Below, piece by piece: positions 1 through 7,218 of a stretch of DNA of 64,000 bases; within the stretch, counting starts at the first letter, position 1, and each line of letters begins with the position of its first letter. This DNA is from a virus (Duplodnaviria > Caudoviricetes): IMG/VR virus record IMGVR_UViG_3300028591_003737, positions 1 to 64,000 of that record; one strand, 5' to 3'. Under the pieces are notes generated by a model that was given only the letters and a program-made list of their open reading frames with translations, did no database searches and was not told the origin of the DNA. Position numbers and translations under genes: made by a program.

Positions 1-70
1 CGGGAGAAGGGATTCGAACCCTCGACTTCAACCTTGGCAAGGTTGCGCTCTACCACTGAGTTACTCCCGC
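1..70 (-). tRNA. tRNA-Gly(GCC), 3' end at window edge
   Basis: Cloverleaf; anticodon arm CAACC-TT GCC AA-GGTTG; T-loop GTTCGAATC. Confidence 0.92.
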
Positions 71-283
71 ATAAATACAGGCACGTAAACGAAATGCCCT
101 CAGAATTTTCTATGGTTTACCTTTACCGTTCTTCAAACCATGTTACAGCTCCTTCACACTATCCTGAAAACAAACTTTATCACTGACTAGCTTTGTCAGA
201 TATACTCAATTGTTAACATACAACAGAGAAAACGATGGTTCACTTATTACGCTACACCACAAAGAGCGGGTCTGTTTACTTTG

Positions 284-359
284 TGCAGCATAGGTGAGTC
301 GAACACCCGTCCCCGACATGGCAAGCCGGTATAATTAATTACCGTTATACGAATGCTGC
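284..359 (-). tRNA. tRNA-Gly(GCC), divergent copy
   Basis: Acceptor GCAGCAT/ATGCTGC; CCGGC-TT GCC AT-GTCGG. Confidence 0.8.
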
Positions 360-366
360 ATAATTT

Positions 367-513
367 GTGTGGGAGGTTGGACTTGAACCAACATAATCTT
401 TTTTGTCATAAAAGCGTGTATACCATTTGAAGTAACTCTTCGACCACACTATTGGGTAGAAGCCAAAGAACAATGTCTAGAGTGTAATTTCGTTTAATTT
501 CACCACTCCCACA
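367..513 (-). ncRNA. tRNA-scaffold RNA with Y-RNA-like stem replacing the anticodon arm (E1)
   Basis: Acceptor TGTGGGAG/CTCCCACA, D arm, T arm GTTGG-TTCAAGT-CCAAC; insert CTCTAGACATTGTTCT-TTGG..CCAA-TAGTGTGGTCGAAGAGTTACTTC. Confidence 0.7.
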
Positions 514-514
514 G

Positions 515-599
515 TGCGGTATAGACGATTCGAACGCCCACCTTCTGGTTGGAAGCCAGATATGCTTCGCTTTCGCTTTACCATTAACACTAATACCGC
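515..599 (-). tRNA. tRNA-Gly(TCC) with expanded D loop
   Basis: TCTGG-CT TCC AA-CCAGA; extra GC-GAAA-GC segment in D loop. Confidence 0.78.
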
Positions 600-604
600 A
601 TAAA

Positions 605-630
605 AATCTACCATTGTGGAATGGTAGATT
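605..630. other. Perfect hairpin (processing site or terminator)
   Basis: AATCTACCATT-GTGG-AATGGTAGATT, 11-bp inverted repeat. Confidence 0.5.
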
Positions 631-720
631 GACCATACCTAGTTTTACCTATAAACTATAACTACGAACTCGATAACGGATTAGTCGCCTCCGTCGGATT
701 TCAATGTACACTCATCCGAG

Positions 721-792
721 AGCAGGTGAACGGAATCGAACCGTCATCCTCAGCTTGGAAGGCTGACGCACTAACCGTTGTGCTACACCTGC
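721..792 (-). tRNA. tRNA-Gly(TCC)
   Basis: TCAGC-CT TCC AA-GCTGA. Confidence 0.92.
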
Positions 793-919
793 ATGGTCAA
801 GTACCCGGATTTCCACCAACTTTTTACAACCTTAATATAATATAGAAAAATTAACTAGTACTTTTTAAATATTATACTTAGTTCTCCTTCTGGTTTCGAA
901 ACCTGACAGAAGGTGTACT

Positions 920-996
920 TGGGGTGAGTTACCGGATTCGAACCGGTCCTCAGGGATTCACAGTCCCCACGACTCAACCGCTATCTTAAACCCACC
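920..996 (-). tRNA. tRNA-His(GTG), encoded G-1 and CCA
   Basis: GGGGA-CT GTG AA-TCCCT; C73. Confidence 0.88.
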
Positions 997-1002
997 ATGT
1001 AG

Positions 1003-1076
1003 GGTGCCTAGTCGGGATCGAACCGACGACATGCGGAACCACAATCCGCCGCTCTGCCAACTGAGCTATAGGCACC
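1003..1076 (-). tRNA. tRNA-His(GTG)
   Basis: GCGGA-TT GTG GT-TCCGC; G-1. Confidence 0.92.
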
Positions 1077-1083
1077 ATGTAAA

Positions 1084-1408
1084 AAACAGATTTTCTTAGT
1101 TAAGCGTATACTGACCATCTGTTAGGGTCTACCACGCATGGGTTCCTCTCCGTTTCGCAGCTTTTCCATGAGCTGTCGTAGCATGTACTATACTTCTACT
1201 ACGCTGTTCCAATTAGGTATAGATGGTAAATCAAAACAATCAACCAGTGCCCTTATTACTGCCTTACTCCCTGGAATATGAAGGTACGCCGACATTCAGT
1301 TTGATTTCTCATACGGTCTAGTTTGTTATGTCTCATTTCAACAATGATAGGGAGGATAACTTTCATTTGCAACCTATCTACCGCAACTGCTTCATATACT
1401 GATTGTTA
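1084..1408 (-). ncRNA. Putative structured ncRNA (~325 nt), unclassified
   Basis: ORF-free, GC-richer than coding DNA, inside tRNA operon. Confidence 0.35.
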
Positions 1409-1415
1409 TAAAAAA

Positions 1416-1740
1416 AATCAAGCTTTACTACATCAGTCACTTACATAACCTCGGCTTTCGGAGCATCAATCTACCATCTTTCGAAGGATTGACTCTACAC
1501 GAGGATTGCATTACCATTGGCGTATTTCACGTAGAAATTACCGGTTTTACTATCATAGAGGTGTTCTGCATCAATTGTAATTTATCACTAATGTCGTGTT
1601 TATATTTACAATTTCAGTTTCGTTGGACAACCCGACGCTTCGGAACGGTTTCATATTACATAGGCTACTGCGCACTCACCTATCCGATTACTCCACATCC
1701 TACTGGCAAGGTTCTTCTTAAAAAAGAACGAGGCTTGATT
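1416..1740 (-). ncRNA. Putative structured ncRNA (~325 nt), unclassified
   Basis: Closed by AATCAAGC/GCTTGATT terminal helix; GC-richer; abuts a tRNA. Confidence 0.45.
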
Positions 1741-1745
1741 TATTG

Positions 1746-1820
1746 TAGCGGTGGGGAGATTCGAACTCCCACTGAATAGGTTTTGAATCTACTGCCATCT
1801 TCCAGTTGGGCTACACCGCC
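1746..1820 (-). tRNA. tRNA-Leu(CAA), short variable loop
   Basis: GTAGA-TT CAA AA-CCTAT; 5-nt variable loop TCAGT. Confidence 0.82.
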
Positions 1821-1825
1821 ATATT

Positions 1826-1965
1826 AATCTGAAGAACATTTAGAAGAGGTAAGTGGACTAACCACCATGTTTGTCATTTCTGACTGATAGGCTCGAACTA
1901 TCTAAAATCTTATTTCCAGTAAAATTTATTAACCATGAAGTATCTCTTCAGATCACTATCAGATT
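1826..1965 (-). ncRNA. YrlA-like (Y RNA) circularly permuted tRNA mimic (E2)
   Basis: Ends AATCTGA/TCAGATT pair; TAGTGATCTGAAGAGATACTTC ... T arm GATAG-TTCGAGC-CTATC, capped acceptor GTCA-GAAA-TGAC, D-like arm, CTCTTCTAAATGTTCT. Confidence 0.7.
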
Positions 1966-1966
1966 G

Positions 1967-2055
1967 CGGTGAGTAGAGGTGTCGAACCTCATCCGGGTCT
2001 TAACCGAACTAACTGATTTCCAATCAGCACCCATCTCCGTTTGGGATTGCTCACC
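1967..2055 (-). tRNA. tRNA-Ser(GGA)
   Basis: GCTGA-TT GGA AA-TCAGT; long variable arm. Confidence 0.85.
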
Positions 2056-2061
2056 AATTAA

Positions 2062-2153
2062 TGGCGGAGAGCAGAGGTGTCGAACCTCATCCGGTTATTA
2101 GCCGAACAACACGTTTAGCAGACGGTTACCATCTCCGTTTGGTTTTACTCTCC
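2062..2153 (-). tRNA. tRNA-Ser(GCT), divergent, CCA encoded
   Basis: CGT-CT GCT AA-ACG; long variable arm; body similar to upstream Ser(GGA). Confidence 0.8.
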
Positions 2154-2160
2154 AATTATG

Positions 2161-2247
2161 CGGTGGGGGCGAGATTCGAACTCGCGGACCCCTTACGGGG
2201 TCGGCAGTTTAGCAAACTGCTGGTTTAAGCCACTCACCCACCCCACC
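2161..2247 (-). tRNA. tRNA-Ser(GCT)
   Basis: GCAGT-TT GCT AA-ACTGC; long variable arm. Confidence 0.93.
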
Positions 2248-2615
2248 ATTAAAAAACAAGCTTTCACACCTTCAGTACTTGTTATGAAAGGTTTTGATTT
2301 CGTCACCTTAACTGGTCATCCGAGGCCGCTTGGTCATACCCGATGACTGTTGAGCATTGCTTCACCAAGTTCTAACTCAACGAGCTATAAATGAGGTCGT
2401 TGTTCCAGTTACTTTTTGTCGGCTTTAAGTAACAAACCATTATCTCCACAATTACGGTATTGTGGTCAACCAAGGCATCCATTCTTCGATTGGTGCCATA
2501 CACAGAGCTTAAAATAAATCTTTGTTATTCAAGTTCCGAAACTCAATCTGTCTTCAGATGAGCAAAAATACCAATGGCTAGTCTCCTCAGACTGTAACCG
2601 CTTTTGTTTTTTAAT
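2248..2615 (-). ncRNA. Putative structured ncRNA (~370 nt), unclassified
   Basis: 12-bp perfect terminal helix ATTAAAAAACAA/TTGTTTTTTAAT; internal hairpins; no ORF. Confidence 0.45.
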
Positions 2616-2805
2616 CTTCTTATTACATCCTATAAGAAGGACAGATTCGTACAACTGTCAGGTTAACTGTGATACTAACCCAATCACACGGTCGTATTTT
2701 ATAAATAAGTTTTTATATCTACCATGTTGCAGGTACTTAAATATATTTTAAGTTTTAGTTATTAAGAGAACTTATAAACTCATTAATAAACCTTGCCAAG
2801 GTCTG

Positions 2806-2879
2806 TAGCGTGACCTGGAGTCGAACCAGGGACCTTGGGGGTATGAATCCCACGCTCTAGCCAACTGAGCTATCACGCC
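2806..2879 (-). tRNA. tRNA-Met(CAT), elongator type (or Ile2)
   Basis: TGGGA-TT CAT AC-CCCCA. Confidence 0.88.
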
Positions 2880-2886
2880 ATTTTTA

Positions 2887-3058
2887 ACTATTTACTTCTG
2901 AAGGTTTTTATTAAACTATGTATTCCTCTTTTCTTGCTTATCCGGACCCGACCGTTGGAACCCACCTCAGATTATTGAACTACGAACATTCAAATTTTGC
3001 TACTGTGATCTTTCAGAATTAAATCATAACTAGTTATAGTCGCCGATATATAAATAGT
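2887..3058 (-). ncRNA. Putative structured ncRNA
   Basis: Terminal ACTATTTA/TAAATAGT and inner TTCTGAA/TTCAGAA pairing. Confidence 0.35.
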
Positions 3059-3208
3059 ATAATTAGAGCATTATAGAATTTGCAACTTCTATAAATTGTT
3101 ACTTGATATGCTATTCATTTATAACACCACTAAGCACCTGCTGAGGAGGACCGCTTATCAATATCTAGAATTTGATTTTATAACGCCGTCACCTTCAAGT
3201 ATCTCTTG

Positions 3209-3283
3209 TCGGAGCACGTGGATTCGAACCACGGACCCTCTGCTTGTAAGGCAGATGCTCTGAACCAACTGAGCTATGCTCCG
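3209..3283 (-). tRNA. tRNA-Val(TAC)
   Basis: TCTGC-CT TAC AA-GCAGA. Confidence 0.93.
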
Positions 3284-3412
3284 ATTAAAATAATAAGGAT
3301 AACCACTTAACCTTATTTCTTCAATATAACTCCCGTTAAAGAAATATTAAATTAAACCCTTTTAAGGTAGCACCTATCTAGAGAGGTAACGGTCCTCTTG
3401 GGTTGGTTTTTG

Positions 3413-3489
3413 TGGGGATAGTCGGAATCGAACCAACGAAATGCCCATCTTGTAAGGATGGCGGCTTAAACCTACTGGCCTATATCCCC
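3413..3489 (-). tRNA. tRNA-Val(TAC), divergent copy
   Basis: CCATC-CT TAC AA-GATGG. Confidence 0.85.
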
Positions 3490-3496
3490 AAATTAT

Positions 3497-3607
3497 ACCG
3501 AAAGAACATTTAGTAGAGCATTGTGTCACCATTGACGTTTTTCCTGAGCTTTGGTAGAAAAAATAAGAATCGAACTTATGAAGTATCTCTACAGACCACT
3601 ATTCGGT
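3497..3607 (-). ncRNA. YrlA-like (Y RNA) circularly permuted tRNA mimic (E3)
   Basis: Ends ACCGAA/TTCGGT; TAGTGGTCTGTAGAGATACTTC, T arm ATAAG-TTCGATT-CTTAT, looped acceptor TTTTTCT..AGGAAAAA, D arm GTCA-ATGG-TGAC, CTCTACTAAATGTTCT. Confidence 0.72.
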
Positions 3608-3608
3608 G

Positions 3609-3682
3609 TCGGTCTGGGAAGACTTGAACTTCCGACCCCTACATTATCAGTGTAGTGCTCTAACCAACTGAGCTACAGACCG
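3609..3682 (-). tRNA. tRNA-Ile(GAT)
   Basis: CTACA-CT GAT AA-TGTAG. Confidence 0.93.
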
Positions 3683-3897
3683 AAATATTGCCCAATCTTA
3701 AACATGTCTGCACTGCGACCTAACAGGACTTTGTTAGTTTCTCCTCCAGTAATATCCCTCATGACTACTTTACGTATCCTATATTTGGAGTTTAATGATA
3801 CCATCCTACATTTACTCATATTACCTCTTGCGGTTCACACCCCAATGTTTCTCCAATCCATTGAGTTTATTCCGTGAGTTTTAAGATCTACAAGCTG

Positions 3898-3972
3898 TAC
3901 CCCTGAGGAGATTCGAACTCCTACTGAATGGATTCTAAGTCCATTGCCATCTTCCAGTTGGGCTACAGGGGC
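3898..3972 (-). tRNA. tRNA-Leu(TAG), short variable loop
   Basis: ATGGA-CT TAG AA-TCCAT; same D arm as Leu(CAA) at 1746. Confidence 0.85.
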
Positions 3973-4060
3973 ATATATAAGTTTTTGTATCATACCTTAC
4001 TATTGAGGTTGAATATTAAAATATTCATTTATACTTAGGATAACTTTAAACCTTCTTTTG

Positions 4061-4135
4061 TACTCCTGACGGGATTCGAACCCGTGTTTCCACCTTGAGA
4101 GGGTGACTACCTCGACCACTAGTATAGACAGGAGC
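4061..4135 (-). tRNA. tRNA-Glu(CTC)
   Basis: TCACC-CT CTC AA-GGTGG. Confidence 0.88.
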
Positions 4136-4142
4136 ATAATTT

Positions 4143-4266
4143 ACTAAGAATCTTGCAAGTAACTTACTTTAATCTCATTTGGATTCGAACCAAATCCCCT
4201 TCTAAAAGGATCCTCCCAAGTATGCATCGCCTTTTACACTATTTTGATTATTTCAGTATTCTTAGT
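4143..4266 (-). ncRNA. Degenerate tRNA-like element within a 9-bp outer helix
   Basis: T arm TTTGG-TTCGAAT-CCAAA and D-like arm, no canonical anticodon arm; ACTAAGAAT/ATTCTTAGT ends. Confidence 0.5.
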
Positions 4267-4269
4267 TTG

Positions 4270-4428
4270 TACCATTCCTTGGAATCGAACCAAGTTCCTC
4301 TGGGCTCTCTACCCAGCGATTTATGTGTCTTCAATACTTAATAACTAAATTATACCTACTTAACGCGTATTTCAATATAACTTGCTATCAGTTTATCGCT
4401 CAGGGTGACTCCAACCGTCCCGAATGGC
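4270..4428 (-). ncRNA. tRNA scaffold with ~85-nt insertion in the anticodon arm
   Basis: Acceptor GCCATTC/GAATGGT, D arm GAC..GTC, T arm CTTGG-TTCGATT-CCAAG; AGCGAT/ATCGCT closes insert. Confidence 0.65.
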
Positions 4429-4496
4429 GAAAGCTTCCAAGAGTTTCGAACCTACAAGAAAACCCCAACTAATTGTATGTGTTCGATTAGTTGTTG

Positions 4497-4569
4497 TGGA
4501 CCCTACGAGAATCGAACTCGTACTTGAAGCTTGCAAAGCTACTGTGCTAACCGTTATCACTAAGGGCCC
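4497..4569 (-). tRNA. tRNA-Ala(TGC)
   Basis: TT TGC AA loop; G3:U70. Confidence 0.9.
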
Positions 4570-4575
4570 AGAAAA

Positions 4576-4667
4576 ATTTGAAGTGCCGGCCAGCTTACCA
4601 ACTAGGATAGACACTGTAACCCGTTATCTATCTACATCTACTCATCGATGCAATGGTAACTTCAAAT
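4576..4667 (-). ncRNA. Putative small structured RNA
   Basis: 9-bp terminal helix ATTTGAAGT/ACTTCAAAT. Confidence 0.35.
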
Positions 4668-4674
4668 AATTTAA

Positions 4675-4845
4675 AATAGCACAGGCAACAGTCTCTTCCA
4701 TGCAGTTTCCAAAACATTTAAACCCTGATTAACAGACTGGTTCTGACACACAATTAGATGACTTAAATCTCCGGAGAGTCAATTCTAAAAGGTACATAGA
4801 CTTCAGCGCTGTCTACCTGTTGTAGTTGACGTCATAACTGCTATT
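4675..4845 (-). ncRNA. Putative structured RNA (~170 nt)
   Basis: AATAGCA/TGCTATT and ACAGG/CCTGT pairing. Confidence 0.35.
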
Positions 4846-4849
4846 ATTG

Positions 4850-4923
4850 TGGACCCGAAGGGAATCGAACCCTCCACGATCTCCTTGCAAGGGAGTTCCG
4901 CCAGCCTTGGTACATGCAAGCCC
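4850..4923 (-). tRNA. tRNA-Ala(TGC), divergent copy
   Basis: CTCC-CT TGC AA-GGAG; G3:U70. Confidence 0.82.
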
Positions 4924-4933
4924 ATAAATATTT

Positions 4934-5072
4934 GCTAGCAAAGAGGGACTCGAACCCCCGACCCGCGGTTTGGACTAAAATTTGAAGTAACTCTAAACTT
5001 CAACACAGTTAAGGTAATAATCGTCAGAGCATTAAATTTAACTGCTGCTCTACCTACTGAGCTATTTGCTAG
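4934..5072 (-). ncRNA. tRNA with Y-RNA-like stem inserted in the anticodon loop (E4)
   Basis: Canonical acceptor, D arm GCTC..GAGC and T arm; ~65-nt insert containing CTCTGAC..GTGTTGAAGTTTAGAGTTACTTC. Confidence 0.72.
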
Positions 5073-5074
5073 TG

Positions 5075-5169
5075 CGGAGATAGCCGGACTCGAACCGACA
5101 CACCGGAGTGGTTACCGATTACTCGTAGTTTTCAGGACTACTGCCTTACGCAATTAGGCTTATATCTCC
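5075..5169 (-). tRNA. tRNA-Ser(TGA), C33 variant
   Basis: GTAGT-CC TGA AA-ACTAC; long variable arm. Confidence 0.8.
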
Positions 5170-5177
5170 ATATTGTG

Positions 5178-5265
5178 CGGAGGGTGAGGGATTCGAACCC
5201 CCGGTGCGCTCAACACGCACAGCGGTTTTCAAGACCGTCGCTATCGACCACTCAGCCAACCCTCC
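5178..5265 (-). tRNA. tRNA-Ser(TGA)
   Basis: ACGGT-CT TGA AA-ACCGC. Confidence 0.93.
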
Positions 5266-5268
5266 ATA

Positions 5269-5706
5269 TTATTTTGCTGAATATTGATGAATTACTCCAT
5301 GACAATTAGAACATAAAATTTGTAAATTATCTAAAGAATTATCAAAATGATTATGATTTTTATGATGTAATTCAAGTGGAATTGGTTTACCTTGCCATTC
5401 ACTTAATCCACAACATTCACATTTTCTTTCTTTTAAACCATCTCTAAATAATTTATTTCTTAATTTAGGAGCATCTAAATAAATATTATTTTCAATATAA
5501 TACATTGCTGGTTTATAATCATTACCAGGAATACCTTTACCACTAGGATTTAATTTAATTTCAATATTTAATATTTTTAAATTATCTCTTAATGTACTAT
5601 ATTTCATATTAAAATGTTTAGCAATTGCTGATAATGGAATATGTTTATCCATTAAATCAACAATTTCATCTAAATGATTTTTTACAACATTTAATTTTGA
5701 ATTCAT
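5269..5706 (-). CDS. HNH endonuclease (free-standing, homing type)
   Basis: CECC...LELHHKNHNHFDNSLDNLQILCSNCH; N-terminal HTH-like segment. Confidence 0.88.
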   Translation of the reverse strand: MNSKLNVVKNHLDEIVDLMDKHIPLSAIAKHFNMKYSTLRDNLKILNIEIKLNPSGKGIPGNDYKPAMYYIENNIYLDAPKLRNKLFRDGLKERKCECCGLSEWQGKPIPLELHHKNHNHFDNSLDNLQILCSNCHGVIHQYSAK

Positions 5707-5725
5707 ATTATATATAATATTTATG

Positions 5726-5808
5726 TCGGCGTGGAGGGAGTCGAACCCTCACGAGCGTAGCTCACATGTTCCTTAGACATGCCTGTATACCAGTTCCAGC
5801 ACACGCCG
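5726..5808 (-). tRNA. tRNA-Leu(AAG)
   Basis: CATGT-CT AAG GA-ACATG; long variable arm. Confidence 0.88.
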
Positions 5809-5820
5809 ATAATTATTTAG

Positions 5821-5894
5821 TCGGGATAGCGCGACTCGAACGCGCGACCTCTAGTTCCCAAAACTAGCGTTCTAACCAACTGAACTACATCCCG
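5821..5894 (-). tRNA. tRNA-Pro(TGG)
   Basis: CTAGT-TT TGG GA-ACTAG. Confidence 0.93.
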
Positions 5895-6083
5895 ATAAGT
5901 TGCATATATTAATATAGTAAAACTATACTAATATATGCATTATAATTGTTGTTTTCCTTTTACCAGTCACGGCTATTCAGAAAACTAATAATATGCATTT
6001 ACCAGACTTGTCAAAGACCTATGTTCTTGTAAATATATAATAGATATTTTCAGAATATCTTTTCATATATTTTAGAACTTTTG

Positions 6084-6155
6084 CAGGAGTTACAGGATTC
6101 GAACCCATACCTGTGGTTTTGGAGACCAATATGCTGCCATTAACACCAAACTCCT
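6084..6155 (-). tRNA. tRNA-Trp(CCA)
   Basis: TGGT-CT CCA AA-ACCA; G73. Confidence 0.9.
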
Positions 6156-6163
6156 ATTATTTG

Positions 6164-6238
6164 TCGAGAGGCCCAGATTCGAACTGGGATTTCTACTGTA
6201 TCAGAGTAGGATCCTAAAACCATTTAGATGATCTCTCG
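6164..6238 (-). tRNA. tRNA-Ile(GAT), divergent copy
   Basis: CTACT-CT GAT AC-AGTAG. Confidence 0.78.
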
Positions 6239-6309
6239 ATAGCCTGAGAATCGGAAATTTATATACTCAATATATAAATGCCTAAATTATAAAAATTTTT
6301 CTCTCAGTG

Positions 6310-6385
6310 TGCCCACGATCCGAATCGAACGGATGCCTCCAGATCTTCAGTCTGACGCGCTAACTACCACCTACGCAACATGGGC
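6310..6385 (-). tRNA. tRNA-Phe(GAA), divergent copy
   Basis: TCAGA-CT GAA GA-TCTGG. Confidence 0.85.
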
Positions 6386-6396
6386 ATTATCGCTTG

Positions 6397-6472
6397 TCTA
6401 GTAGATAGGACTCGAACCTACATTATCCGCATTCCAAATGCGGCAACCTAAAGCCAATTGGTTTACTACTAG
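6397..6472 (-). tRNA. tRNA-Pro(TGG), A37 variant
   Basis: CCGCA-TT TGG AA-TGCGG. Confidence 0.82.
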
Positions 6473-6491
6473 ATATATTTCAATGATCTAG

Positions 6492-6563
6492 AGTCGGGTA
6501 CCGGATTCGAACCGATGTTGACAGTTTTGCAGACTGTTGCCTAAGCCCCTCGGCCAACCCGAC
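6492..6563 (-). tRNA. tRNA-Cys(GCA)
   Basis: ACAGT-CT GCA AA-ACTGT; U73. Confidence 0.92.
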
Positions 6564-6570
6564 TTATTTG

Positions 6571-6643
6571 AGTCTCTGACAGGATTCGAACCTGCATATC
6601 TGATTTTGCGGACCAGTACCTCAATCCATTCGGCCACAGAGAC
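6571..6643 (-). tRNA. tRNA-Cys(GCA), C33 variant
   Basis: CTGGT-CC GCA AA-ATCAG; U73. Confidence 0.85.
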
Positions 6644-6654
6644 ATTTTATTATG

Positions 6655-6727
6655 CGGGCCTGACCGGAATCGAACCAGTGACACGAGGATCTTCAGTCCC
6701 CTGCTCTACCAACTGAGCTACAGGCCC
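6655..6727 (-). tRNA. tRNA-Phe(GAA)
   Basis: GGGGA-CT GAA GA-TCCTC. Confidence 0.93.
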
Positions 6728-6729
6728 AT

Positions 6730-6741
6730 TTTCAAAGAACT
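6730..6741 (-). promoter_or_regulatory. boxA-like antitermination site
   Basis: AGTTCTTTGAAA on the minus strand, identical to 6821-6832. Confidence 0.55.
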
Positions 6742-6745
6742 TTTG

Positions 6746-6819
6746 TACCCCACCCGAGAGTCGAACTCGGAAAACCTGGTCTCTTAAGCCAGTACGTATG
6801 CCAATTCCGTCAGCGGGGC
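6746..6819 (-). tRNA. tRNA-Leu (AAG, ambiguous loop), short variable loop
   Basis: CTGGC-TT AAG AG-ACCAG with C.A mismatch; Leu-type D arm. Confidence 0.7.
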
Positions 6820-6820
6820 G

Positions 6821-6832
6821 TTTCAAAGAACT
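6821..6832 (-). promoter_or_regulatory. boxA-like antitermination site
   Basis: AGTTCTTTGAAA just 5' of the first tRNA of the operon. Confidence 0.6.
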
Positions 6833-6852
6833 AATGTTTGTTTTGTATACTT

Positions 6853-6880
6853 ATTATAGAAATAAATTTTCTAAATTCAA
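6853..6880 (-). promoter_or_regulatory. Promoter of tRNA operon (TTGAAT..TATAAT)
   Basis: Minus strand TTGAATTTAGAAAATTTATTTCTATAAT; motif recurs in the window. Confidence 0.55.
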
Positions 6881-6988
6881 AATATTCTATAAAAAATTTC
6901 GAAGGTTTTTTGATATCTTTCTCAAATACCAAATAACCTTCGATTTACCTATCTTATATGTTGTTTTATTTGATATTTGAGCCTCTAT

Positions 6989-7090
6989 CTAGCATCCACA
7001 AGGGAAACCAGCAAACACTGATGCAACAGGTGACCAACTGAGCTGGCTACCTGAAATCTCACGAGCAATATGCATCATAGTGTTTCTCAT
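6989..7090 (-). CDS. 33-aa peptide MRNTMMHIAREISGSQLSWSPVASVFAGFPCGC
   Basis: Read by eye; upstream TTGAA-type promoter (7173-7200); downstream hairpin 6899-6945. Confidence 0.4.
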   Translation of the reverse strand: MRNTMMHIAREISGSQLSWSPVASVFAGFPCGC

Positions 7091-7218
7091 ATCAAATAAA
7101 TAATCTTCTAATTTATAATAAACTCTTTTTTTTAATTTGGATAAAAATTTTAACTAATCTTATCTAATTTTATTATAGAAATATTAAAATAAAAATTCAA
7201 TAATATACACTAAAAAAT

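What the first reader, a model, noticed from the sequence alone, without database searches (positions are those of the whole stretch)
72..4845. tRNA spacers are helix-closed ncRNA cassettes (tRNA-punctuated RNA array)
Seen: many spacers begin and end with complementary sequences: 798/921 (7 bp), 1416/1740 (8 bp), 2248/2615 (12 bp), 2887/3058 (8 bp), 4143/4266 (9 bp), 4576/4667 (9 bp), 4675/4845 (7 bp). Most are GC-richer than the coding DNA, lack credible ORFs, and abut tRNAs. Inference: host tRNA processing releases a suite of discrete ncRNAs, so the 'tRNA cluster' is largely an ncRNA delivery operon.
Basis: partly seen in the sequence, partly recalled or inferred. Interest (0 to 1): 0.7.

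Follow-up and report, generated by a model that had tools for sequence, protein, structure and literature searches.

The report
Phage tRNA array carrying structured RNA genes
The gaps between the tRNA genes of this rumen jumbo phage are not empty spacers but separate, folded and expressed RNA genes, including four Y-RNA-like RNAs (partners of the RNA-binding protein Ro60) and two unclassified large RNAs.

Summary
Observation confirmed. All seven end-to-end complementarities exist at the stated coordinates. The four of 9-12 bp exceed chance; the 7-8 bp ones do not on their own.

The spacers lie on the minus strand. They have about 40% GC against about 20% in the neighbouring coding DNA, and no credible ORFs.

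Four elements carry one conserved stem module: 364-513, 1824-1967, 3494-3610 and 4934-5071. About half of 94 other phage loci have this module directly beside a Ro60-like gene, and bacteria have it beside rsr. It is therefore the Ro60-binding stem of a YrlA-type Y RNA. It occurs here in Y-RNA order and in tRNA order. No Ro60 gene was found in this roughly 60%-complete genome.

Two large RNAs, 1405-1744 and 2248-2625, show strong compensatory covariation in rumen relatives. Short, deep contigs cover them in metatranscriptomes from two studies.

Three helix-bounded units (1244-1412, about 2882-3046, 4143-4262) are exact insertions or deletions relative to close relatives.

No Rfam family other than tRNA matches. 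Release by tRNA processing is plausible but not shown.

This is a new variant of a known kind (T4 species 1 and 2 RNAs, phage Y RNAs). Earlier notes of this scan described similar arrays on other DNA.

The parts
1..6819 (-). Stable-RNA array: 26-28 tRNA genes alternating with non-tRNA RNA units. It is cut by the contig start at position 1.
   Evidence: ARAGORN and Rfam tRNA calls. G000 begins at window position 1. Promoter-like sites lie upstream at 6880-6853 and 7200-7172 on the minus strand (consensus matches only).
364..513 (-). E1: a tRNA-shaped RNA with an acceptor stem and a T arm. It carries the Y module (426-486) as an extra arm. Its anticodon-like loop is not conserved among orthologues.
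   Evidence: Model R1 gives 55.7 bits. Orthologues occur in L078, L095 and L096, with a covarying acceptor stem and a variable loop. RNA contig X17 record 9 covers 364-517.
514..590 (-). Degenerate tRNA-Gly(UCC)-like element.
   Evidence: ARAGORN at relaxed threshold. Rfam tRNA 23.3 bits, below the cut-off.
793..919 (-). Helix-closed RNA with invariant ends and a replaceable centre.
   Evidence: 7-bp closing helix. The ends are invariant, a hairpin has 3 compensatory pairs, and the centre comes in three different versions in relatives. RNA contig X2 record 18 covers 659-922.
1244..1412 (-). Helix-bounded insertion unit, absent from four relatives.
   Evidence: Absent in L203, L222, L210 and L195; its ends are complementary over 7-8 bp. 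RNA contig X17 record 10 covers 1246-1446.
1405..1744 (-). Large structured RNA A (about 330 nt). It is closed by a 9-bp helix, followed by a U-run, and abuts the 3' end of tRNA-Leu(CAA).
   Evidence: Alignment A7: 6 sequences at 65-85% identity, 22 of 70 pairs compensatory, 95.7% of cells paired against at most 42% in slid controls. RNA contig X2 record 19 covers 1411-1717 at depth 440.
1824..1967 (-). E2: Y RNA-like, in Y order. The 5' and 3' ends form the module stem. Inside are a T arm and two small hairpins.
   Evidence: Model R2, built without the window copies, gives 38 bits, E = 2e-6. Fold. 95% identical copies in L203 and L222.
2062..2153 (-). Degenerate tRNA-Ser(GCU)-like paralogue.
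   Evidence: ARAGORN at relaxed threshold. 73% identical to the neighbouring tRNA-Ser. Fold z = -2.4.
2248..2625 (-). Large structured RNA B (about 370 nt). It is closed by a 12-bp helix, and its 3' end abuts the 5' end of tRNA-Ser(GCU).
   Evidence: Alignment A8: 12 compensatory pairs and an invariant 3' core. Fold z = -2.5. RNA contigs cover 2379-2625 at depth 1383 and 2504-2668 at depth 894. Strain changes at 2572, 2606 and 2609 keep their pairs as wobbles, two of them in the closing helix.
2882..3046 (-).
   Evidence: Absent in L216 and L210, where the two arms form a small hairpin. Double compensatory strain changes at 2976/2977 with 2991/2992.
3494..3610 (-). E4: Y RNA-like, in Y order.
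   Evidence: Model R2 gives 39 bits, E = 1e-6. Shares the module with E2, and both stems covary between the two copies. 95-99% identical copies in L203, L210 and L216.
3683..3896 (-). Unclassified RNA, very deep in RNA libraries.
   Evidence: Depth at 3812 is 4249 in X2 and 304 in X17. About 70% identical homologues in L203 and L219 with 6 compensatory pairs from only 3 sequences.
4143..4266 (-). Helix-closed unit with an internal T-arm-like hairpin. It is an exact indel.
   Evidence: 9-bp terminal complementarity. 4143-4262 is absent in L216. A 67% identical copy sits at another site, L216:6257-6385, between two tRNAs, where it is an insertion relative to L203.
4269..4353 (-). tRNA-like element with a T arm and an anticodon-like hairpin.
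   Evidence: ARAGORN at 80% threshold. Fold. GGTTCGATTCC motif at 4281-4291.
4354..4495 (-). Unclassified RNA.
   Evidence: 75% identical homologue in L216. RNA contigs X17 4091-4501 and X16 4108-4463 cover it; an adapter marks a fragment end at 4328 in X2.
4576..4667 (-). Helix-closed unit (9 bp).
   Evidence: Fold z = -2.9. RNA contig X17 record 14 covers 4576-4830. No homologue found in relatives.
4675..4845 (-). Helix-closed unit (7 bp); weakly supported.
   Evidence: not above chance. Covered by RNA contig X17 record 14. No homologue found.
4849..4923 (-). Degenerate tRNA-Ala(UGC)-like element.
   Evidence: ARAGORN at relaxed threshold. Paralogue of tRNA-Ala 4496-4569.
4934..5071 (-). E5: a tRNA body carrying the Y module (4981-5033) as an insert. 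Its anticodon stem is not restored when the insert is removed.
   Evidence: Rfam tRNA 44 bits with a long insert. Model R1 gives 41 bits. Orthologues in L078 and L095. Only 3 of 5 stem pairs under the 28/29 model.

Best explanation
The minus strand of 1-6.8 kb is a stable-RNA array of a rumen jumbo phage. In it, tRNA genes alternate with discrete, independently folding RNA genes of at least three kinds.

(1) Four Y RNA-like RNAs are built on one conserved stem module. The module is a closing helix, an internal loop with UAGUG on the 5' strand and GUUCU on the 3' strand, a second helix ending AGAG:CUCU, and then UUACUUCA. In other phages and in bacteria this module sits beside Ro60/Rsr genes, so these RNAs most likely bind a Ro60 protein. 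That protein would be encoded in the missing part of this genome or supplied by the host. As known Y RNAs do, they would tether it to or gate it against other factors such as PNPase. Two copies have the ends in the stem (YrlA order). Two carry the stem as an extra arm on a tRNA-shaped body.

(2) Two large RNAs of about 330 and 370 nt have conserved, covarying folds and unknown activity.

(3) Several tRNA-derived look-alikes and small helix-closed units are present.

The units are probably transcribed together with the tRNAs. RNase P and 3' processing at adjoining tRNA ends, plus cleavage or termination at the closing helices, would free them.

Shown: the folds, the conservation, the presence in RNA libraries and the modular gain and loss of units. 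Inferred: co-transcription, the processing route and Ro60 binding.
For: Composition and lack of ORFs.

Module family:
- The 12-mer of the module occurs 5 times on the minus strand of the array against 1.2 expected in the whole window.
- A pattern scan found it in 94 viral loci, often twice per locus.
- Covariation in the tRNA-order alignment A2 gives 98% of cells paired, with all 3 closing-helix pairs changed on both sides. In the hairpin-form alignment A6, all 9 closing-helix pairs changed on both sides.
- Model R2, built without the window copies, finds 3494-3610 and 1824-1967 at E about 1e-6. Model R1 finds 426-486 and 4981-5033.

Ro60 link:
- TROVE+vWA genes lie directly upstream of the module, on the same strand, in about 45 phage loci. 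Four of these proteins are only 27-37% identical to the others.
- The same module lies upstream of bacterial rsr genes. Rfam YrlA scores those RNAs at 36-45 bits.
- Phage Ro60 binding of phage Y RNA-like RNAs is established elsewhere (PMC4201824, PMC12135203).

Large RNAs: 22 of 70 and 12 of 106 pairs are compensatory.

Expression: RNA contigs from studies P2, P13 and P14 cover the units. Contigs lying wholly in spacers have depth 440-1383. The contig listed over the HNH ORF in X2 has depth 5.6, the binned depth there is 0-6, and DNA-run contigs over the spacers have depth 5-10.

Modularity: indels coincide with helix-bounded units. 19% of indels have terminal complements of at least 8 bp against 1.4% of controls.
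Against: - No Ro60/TROVE gene was found in G000 or in three relatives' records, but these are only 14-83% complete.
- Rfam YrlA does not detect the window copies, even at E up to 10.
- Minimum-free-energy z-scores of most units are unremarkable.
- Only contigs could be laid, so RNA ends, strand and true abundance are not established, and tRNA-like parts attract contigs from other organisms.
- The large RNAs were found only in close rumen relatives, so their covariation rests on 5-6 related sequences.
- The 7-bp helices are within chance.
Confidence: 0.72

Rival explanations
1. The helix-closed units are small mobile elements, MITE-like or hairpin-bounded insertion units. They spread among tRNA arrays, and their terminal helices are inverted repeats needed for DNA mobility, not for RNA function. 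The RNA is a by-product of insertion into a highly transcribed operon.
For: Three window units are exact indels bounded by 7-9 bp inverted repeats. 19% of indels among relatives have terminal complements of at least 8 bp against 1.4% of controls. A 67% identical copy of the 4143-4266 unit lies at a different inter-tRNA site in L216, where it is an insertion relative to L203.
Against: No transposase or recombinase was seen in the array; the HNH ORF 5269-5706 is the only gene. Target-site duplications are at most an ambiguous AAA. The two copies of the 4143 unit keep an internal T-arm hairpin through compensatory changes and share a conserved 3' block, which points to selection on the RNA. Most indels are not repeat-bounded. 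This reading can coexist with the main one, as mobile RNA genes.
Confidence: 0.3
2. The spacers are processing scaffolds only. They are structured leaders, trailers and inter-tRNA segments that guide RNase P, RNase III or RNase E and protect the precursor. They accumulate because they are folded and have no function of their own.
For: Several units abut tRNA ends, at 1744/1745, 2247/2248 and 4135/4136. Spacer pieces of stable-RNA operons can be abundant in RNA libraries.
Against: A scaffold role does not explain a conserved module shared with Ro60 loci of unrelated phages and bacteria. It also does not explain multi-helix covariation over 330-370 nt, or the free gain and loss of units without loss of the neighbouring tRNAs.
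Confidence: 0.15
3. The spacers are decaying tRNA pseudogenes and chance hairpins left by duplication and loss in a fast-changing array.
For: Several elements are clearly degenerate tRNA copies (514-590, 2062-2153, 4849-4923). T-loop motifs are frequent in spacers. The 7-bp helices are within chance.
Against: In a genome with about 20% GC coding DNA, neutral decay should lower GC, yet the units hold about 40%. RNAs A and B have no tRNA similarity and show compensatory covariation. The Y module is under selection across phages and bacteria.
Confidence: 0.08

Closest known systems
YrlA-type bacterial and phage Y RNAs with Ro60/Rsr (Rfam RF02553; Chen et al. 2014, PMC4201824; Thermus phage phiLo Yrl1 and Yrl2, PMC12135203)
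   Same: A long stem formed by the two RNA ends, with a conserved internal loop. It encloses a tRNA-like part with a T arm. The family as a whole lies next to TROVE+vWA Ro60 genes in phages and bacteria. The 3' strand motif (U)GUUC(U/C) matches the Rfam YrlA consensus.
   Different: The window copies are not detected by RF02553. No Ro60 gene was found in this incomplete genome. The copies lie inside a tRNA array. The same module also occurs as a bare hairpin of about 80 nt, and as an insert in tRNA bodies between nucleotides 28 and 29.
Phage T4 tRNA cluster with small stable RNAs species 1 and 2 (rnaC, rnaD) (from established knowledge of T4)
   Same: Non-tRNA stable RNAs encoded among phage tRNA genes and presumably matured from the same precursors. 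Their function is still unknown.
   Different: No sequence similarity: a search of 50,697 phage records with the whole array returned only tRNA and HNH matches. Here there are many more units, of several kinds and up to 370 nt, with modular gain and loss.
Large phage-associated RNAs often found near tRNAs (ROOL, GOLLD)
   Same: Large structured non-coding RNAs in phage genomes beside tRNA genes.
   Different: No Rfam match, even at E up to 10. RNAs A and B are smaller, at 330-370 nt, and were found only in close rumen relatives.
'Enigmatic' tRNA introns of Lak megaphages (Devoto et al. 2019, PMC6784885, Table S6)
   Same: Oversized tRNA genes in very large gut phages, with inserts that contain T-arm-like hairpins closed by a helix.
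   Different: Lak inserts were predicted in the anticodon loop, just after the anticodon, and lack the UAGUG / AGAG-UUACUUCA module. Here the insert interrupts the 5' strand of the anticodon stem.

Membership tests
YrlA / Y RNA-like (RF02553) | Scores at or above the Rfam gathering threshold (69 bits) | tested here: not met
   No YrlA hit on E2, even at E up to 10 in a 156-nt search. The only window hits, at 19-20 bits, lie on tandem tRNAs. Bacterial RNAs with the same module score 36-45 bits.
YrlA / Y RNA-like (RF02553) | The 5' and 3' ends pair in a long stem with a conserved internal loop, the Ro60-binding site | tested here: met
   Model R2, built from other genomes, finds 1824-1967 and 3494-3610 at 38-39 bits. 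Both helices covary.
YrlA / Y RNA-like (RF02553) | Enclosed tRNA-like domain in the order T arm, acceptor-like hairpin, D arm | tested here: inconclusive
   E2 and E4 have a T-arm hairpin followed by two small hairpins (read by eye). Clade relatives L074 and L078 show clear T, acceptor-like and D arms. No model-based test was done.
YrlA / Y RNA-like (RF02553) | Encoded next to a Ro60/TROVE gene | tested here: not met
   No TROVE or Ro60-like gene in G000, G001, G002 or G005, but these records are 14-83% complete. The feature is met for the module family elsewhere: about 45 phage loci and bacterial rsr loci.
YrlA / Y RNA-like (RF02553) | Binds Ro60/Rsr | not testable with these tools
   Needs immunoprecipitation or a gel-shift assay.
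T4-type small stable RNAs of tRNA clusters (species 1 and 2) | Non-tRNA RNA encoded within a phage tRNA gene cluster | tested here: met
T4-type small stable RNAs of tRNA clusters (species 1 and 2) | Accumulates as a discrete stable RNA | tested here: inconclusive
   Short, deep RNA-library contigs lie inside the units. Contigs cannot show ends or stability.
T4-type small stable RNAs of tRNA clusters (species 1 and 2) | Sequence homology to rnaC or rnaD | tested here: not met
   blastn of 1-7200 against 50,697 phage records gave only tRNA and HNH matches.
ROOL, GOLLD, HDV-like, 6S, SRP, tmRNA, RNase P | Match to the Rfam covariance model | tested here: not met
   Only tRNA at gathering thresholds. 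Nothing credible at E up to 10. ARAGORN finds no tmRNA.
Miniature inverted-repeat mobile elements | Terminal inverted repeats that bound an insertion polymorphism | tested here: met
   Window 1244-1412 and 4143-4262, L195:3795-3951, L195:4028-4135 and L216:6257-6385.
Miniature inverted-repeat mobile elements | Target-site duplication, and many dispersed copies | tested here: inconclusive
   Only an ambiguous AAA flank. One second-site copy of the 4143 unit. No other paralogues in the array.

The most novel reading that the evidence does not exclude
Rumen jumbo phages keep a shuffling library of hairpin-bounded RNA genes inside their tRNA operon. The units move as exact helix-closed cassettes. 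Some are Y RNAs that act on the host's own Ro60/Rsr without a phage Ro60. The same Ro60-binding module has been grafted between nucleotides 28 and 29 of otherwise intact tRNAs in crAss-sized phages. That would make either a new class of tRNA-Y RNA chimeras or a new kind of tRNA intervening sequence. RNAs A and B would be new classes of large functional RNA.
Probability: 0.3. Interest if true: 0.8.

Novelty: new variant of a known kind. Interest (0 to 1): 0.62.

Why it matters
Phage tRNA clusters are usually annotated as tRNAs plus empty spacers. Here most of the 'empty' sequence is conserved, folded RNA that is present in RNA libraries.

- It links Y RNAs, the partners of the RNA-quality-control protein Ro60, to tRNA arrays of gut and rumen phages. 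The variant is one that the Rfam model misses.
- It shows the same protein-binding module reused in three topologies.
- It adds two unclassified large RNAs.
- It suggests that helix-closed RNA genes are the unit of gain and loss in these arrays.

Together this gives concrete candidates for how large phages manipulate host RNA decay, RNA repair or tRNA-directed defence. It also gives a way to annotate similar arrays.

Tried and rejected
- Known RNA families: Rfam at gathering and at E up to 10 found only tRNA. The weak snoRNA, sRNA and plastid hits are chance or the antisense of tRNAs.
- Thermodynamic z-scores: most units are not distinguishable from shuffles, so MFE alone neither supports nor refutes them.
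- E3: the module-like 12-mer at 3195-3206 has one mismatch and no partner strands, and is treated as chance.
- Lak megaphage tRNA introns are a different kind of insert.
- Ro60/TROVE and RtcB were not found in G000. The record is about 60% complete, so this says little.
- Metagenome records of the clade could not be searched for Ro60.
- Distant clade members L095, L096, L074 and L078 share only the tRNAs, E1, E5 and Y-order elements by blastn and nhmmer.
- The pattern TTACTTCAN{2,5}GGTATACAC gave mostly chance loci in viral contigs.
- Exact 19-24-mers from RNAs A and B found nothing in viral or metagenome collections.
- ARAGORN on deletion variants was too permissive to place insert boundaries. 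The explicit 28/29 stem test was used instead.
- Joints in the laid contigs are mostly tRNA-to-tRNA chimeras, and none removes a Y module, so nothing can be said about splicing.
- A first z-score script timed out.

Full report
**Context.** The window is the first 64 kb of a 169.6-kb IMG/VR virus record that CheckV rates about 60% complete. Sequencing runs that hold it come from sheep and cattle gut. A neighbouring 1643-aa protein has 41-44% identical relatives on viral contigs of 236 and 435 kb. It is therefore a fragment of a rumen jumbo phage. ARAGORN and Rfam place 26-28 tRNA genes in 1-6819, all on the minus strand. The array is cut by the contig start.

**The observation.**
- All seven terminal complementarities exist at the stated places. 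Their lengths are 7, 9, 12, 8, 9, 9 and 7 bp.
- A random 14-nt anchor in the same sequence finds a perfect partner within 60-420 nt of at least 7 bp in 19% of trials. The figures for at least 8 bp and at least 9 bp are 4.4% and 0.7%.
- The four helices of 9-12 bp are therefore a clear excess. The shorter ones are not, taken alone.
- The region has 36-52% GC against 14-25% in the coding DNA after 7 kb.
- It has no ORF above 96 aa, apart from an HNH endonuclease gene at 5269-5706.

**A recurrent module.** Folding the spacers showed that 1821-1965 and 3490-3607 share both end segments.
- The shared 12-mer AGAGWTACTTCA occurs five times in the array, always on the minus strand, against 1.2 expected in the whole window.
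- The module consists of a closing helix P1, an internal loop, a second helix P2 and a conserved tail. The loop has UAGUG on the 5' strand and GUUCU on the 3' strand. P2 ends AGAG:CUCU and is followed by UUACUUCA.
- A pattern scan of viral contigs found 94 loci. Many are on contigs of about 100 kb, often with two or three copies beside tRNAs. About 19 are chance or coding matches.
- In 36 copies in which the module is a closed hairpin, 98% of cells pair and all three P1 pairs change on both sides.
- In 22 copies in which the RNA ends lie in P1, all nine P1 pairs change on both sides.
- Model R1 finds window 426-486 and 4981-5033, with orthologues in the clade.
- Model R2 was built only from other genomes. 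It finds 3494-3610 and 1824-1967 at E about 1e-6. There are no further copies in the 169-kb record.

**What the module is.**
- Two complete phages of about 98 kb encode a 474-aa TROVE+vWA (Ro60-type) protein directly upstream of their module copies, on the same strand.
- The same arrangement holds in about 45 of the pattern-matched loci. Four of these Ro60-like proteins are only 27-37% identical to the rest.
- Bacterial Ro60 loci fetched with an alignment of these proteins carry the same module upstream of rsr. There it encloses a T arm, an acceptor-like hairpin and a canonical D arm.
- Rfam YrlA scores those bacterial RNAs at 36-45 bits, below its 69-bit threshold.
- The module is therefore the Ro60-binding stem of a YrlA-type Y RNA subfamily that the Rfam model under-detects.
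- Y RNAs with Ro60 are known in phages (PMC4201824). In Thermus phage phiLo they assemble with host PNPase (PMC12135203).
- In the window's own record and three relatives' records no Ro60 gene was found. These are 14-83% complete.

**Topologies.**
- E2 (1824-1967) and E4 (3494-3610) have the YrlA order.
- E1 (364-513) and E5 (4934-5071) have open acceptor-stem ends and carry the module as an extra arm.
- E1 orthologues keep a covarying acceptor stem and an invariant stem CUUUU/AAAAG. Their anticodon-like loop differs between orthologues, so E1 is not a decoding tRNA.
- In crAss-sized phages the module interrupts otherwise normal tRNAs between nucleotides 28 and 29. Joining the two nucleotides before the insert to the three after it restores a perfect 5-bp anticodon stem in at least nine distinct genes (Lys, Glu, Thr, Ser, Pro). 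Positions 27-28 and 42-43 covary across the insert.
- E5 of the window does not pass this test, with 3 of 5 pairs.
- The 'enigmatic introns' of Lak megaphage tRNAs are different in both position and sequence.

**The large RNAs.** A metagenome scan for E1 orthologues returned close rumen relatives whose spacers align at 65-97% identity.
- For 1405-1746, six sequences give 70 predicted pairs. Of these, 22 are compensatory and 95.7% of cells pair, against at most 42% of cells and at most 4 compensatory pairs when partners are slid.
- For 2244-2625, five sequences give 12 compensatory pairs and an invariant 3' core.
- Three strain changes (2572, 2606, 2609) are wobble-neutral, two of them in the closing helix.
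- Neither RNA matches Rfam. Neither was found outside the close relatives.
- 793-925 has invariant ends, a covarying hairpin and three different centres.
- 3683-3896 has about 70% identical homologues with some compensatory pairs, from three sequences only.

**Expression.** Only assembled contigs could be laid, so ends, strand and abundance are not established.
- Contigs from RNA libraries of three studies cover most units.
- Contigs lying wholly inside spacers have high word depth: 1411-1717 at 440, 2379-2625 at 1383 and 2504-2668 at 894.
- At position 3812 the depth is 4249 in X2 and 304 in X17.
- The contig listed over the HNH ORF in X2 has depth 5.6, and the binned depth there in the RNA runs is 0-6. 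DNA-run contigs over the same spacers have depth 5-10.
- This supports transcription and accumulation of spacer RNA.

**Modularity.**
- Window 1244-1412 is absent from four relatives.
- About 2882-3046 is absent from two relatives, in which the arms of the 2887/3058 helix form a small hairpin.
- 4143-4262 is absent from L216.
- Each of these units is bounded by 7-9 bp inverted complements.
- Among 32 partly redundant indel events in the clade, 19% have terminal complements of at least 8 bp, against 1.4% of length-matched controls.
- A 67% identical copy of the 4143 unit lies at another inter-tRNA site in L216. It has a covarying closing helix and T-arm hairpin.
- Helix-closed units thus behave as units of gain and loss.

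**Verdict.** Release by tRNA processing remains an inference. The kind is known from T4 small stable RNAs and from phage and bacterial Y RNAs. The variant is new in four respects:
- an under-detected Y-RNA stem family that occurs in three topologies inside tRNA arrays;
- no Ro60 gene found in the part of the genome that is held;
- two unclassified large RNAs;
- cassette-like turnover of helix-closed units.

Earlier notes of this scan described the two permutations on this same stretch, and Y RNA-like or T4-like arrays on other DNA.

Noticed in passing
L057:1204-1338, L011:8728-8861, L049:9283-9407, L002, L036, L044, L050, L064, L075 (loci): In crAss-sized phages, otherwise normal tRNA genes (Lys, Glu, Thr, Ser, Pro) are interrupted between nucleotides 28 and 29 by the 52-80-nt Y module, next to a Ro60-like gene. 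Removing the insert restores a perfect anticodon stem, and positions 27-28 and 42-43 covary. Whether the insert is spliced out or kept is unknown.
   Followed up: partly
L124, L125, L127, L141, L154 and others (bacterial rsr loci): YrlA-type RNAs beside rsr in Acidobacteriota, Saccharimonadales, Flavobacteriia and others score only 36-45 bits against RF02553, whose gathering score is 69. The Rfam model appears to miss a large subfamily with the GGUG...AGAG-UUACUUC / UGUUCC stem.
   Followed up: partly
window 1-6819: Most tRNAs come as same-anticodon pairs: Gly GCC, Gly UCC, His, Ser GGA, Ser GCU, Val UAC, Ala UGC, Ser UGA, Cys, Phe, Pro, Leu AAG, Ile GAU. Often one of the pair scores high and the other is divergent.
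   Followed up: no
window 5269-5706 (-): A 145-aa HNH homing-endonuclease-like ORF sits inside the tRNA array in an AT-rich island of 21% GC. It is similar to HNH genes of Erwinia and crAss-like phages.
   Followed up: no
L216:6184-6256 and L195:4459-4530: Close relatives carry a tRNA with anticodon CUA, which reads TAG, in the part of the array that lies beyond the window's start. This hints at amber suppression or stop-codon recoding in the clade.
   Followed up: no
window 2975-3017 (-): A strain haplotype changes UG to CA at both 2992/2991 and 3015/3014, and CA to UG at 2977/2976. Both alternative helices with 2976-2979 therefore stay paired. This is possibly a pair of mutually exclusive helices.
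   Followed up: partly
L006:11141-11445, L014:8097-8400, L072:9484-10008, L049:7263-7673; L031:5290-5528: The crAss-sized phages with Ro60 and Y modules also encode tmRNA genes near the same RNA cluster. One jumbo-phage locus has a group I intron about 40 nt after a Y-module hairpin.
   Followed up: no
window 1405-1420 and 2244-2262 (-): Both large RNAs end with the same motif, AAAGCUUG followed by a U-run, immediately after the 3' strand of their closing helix. This is possibly a shared termination or processing signal.
   Followed up: no
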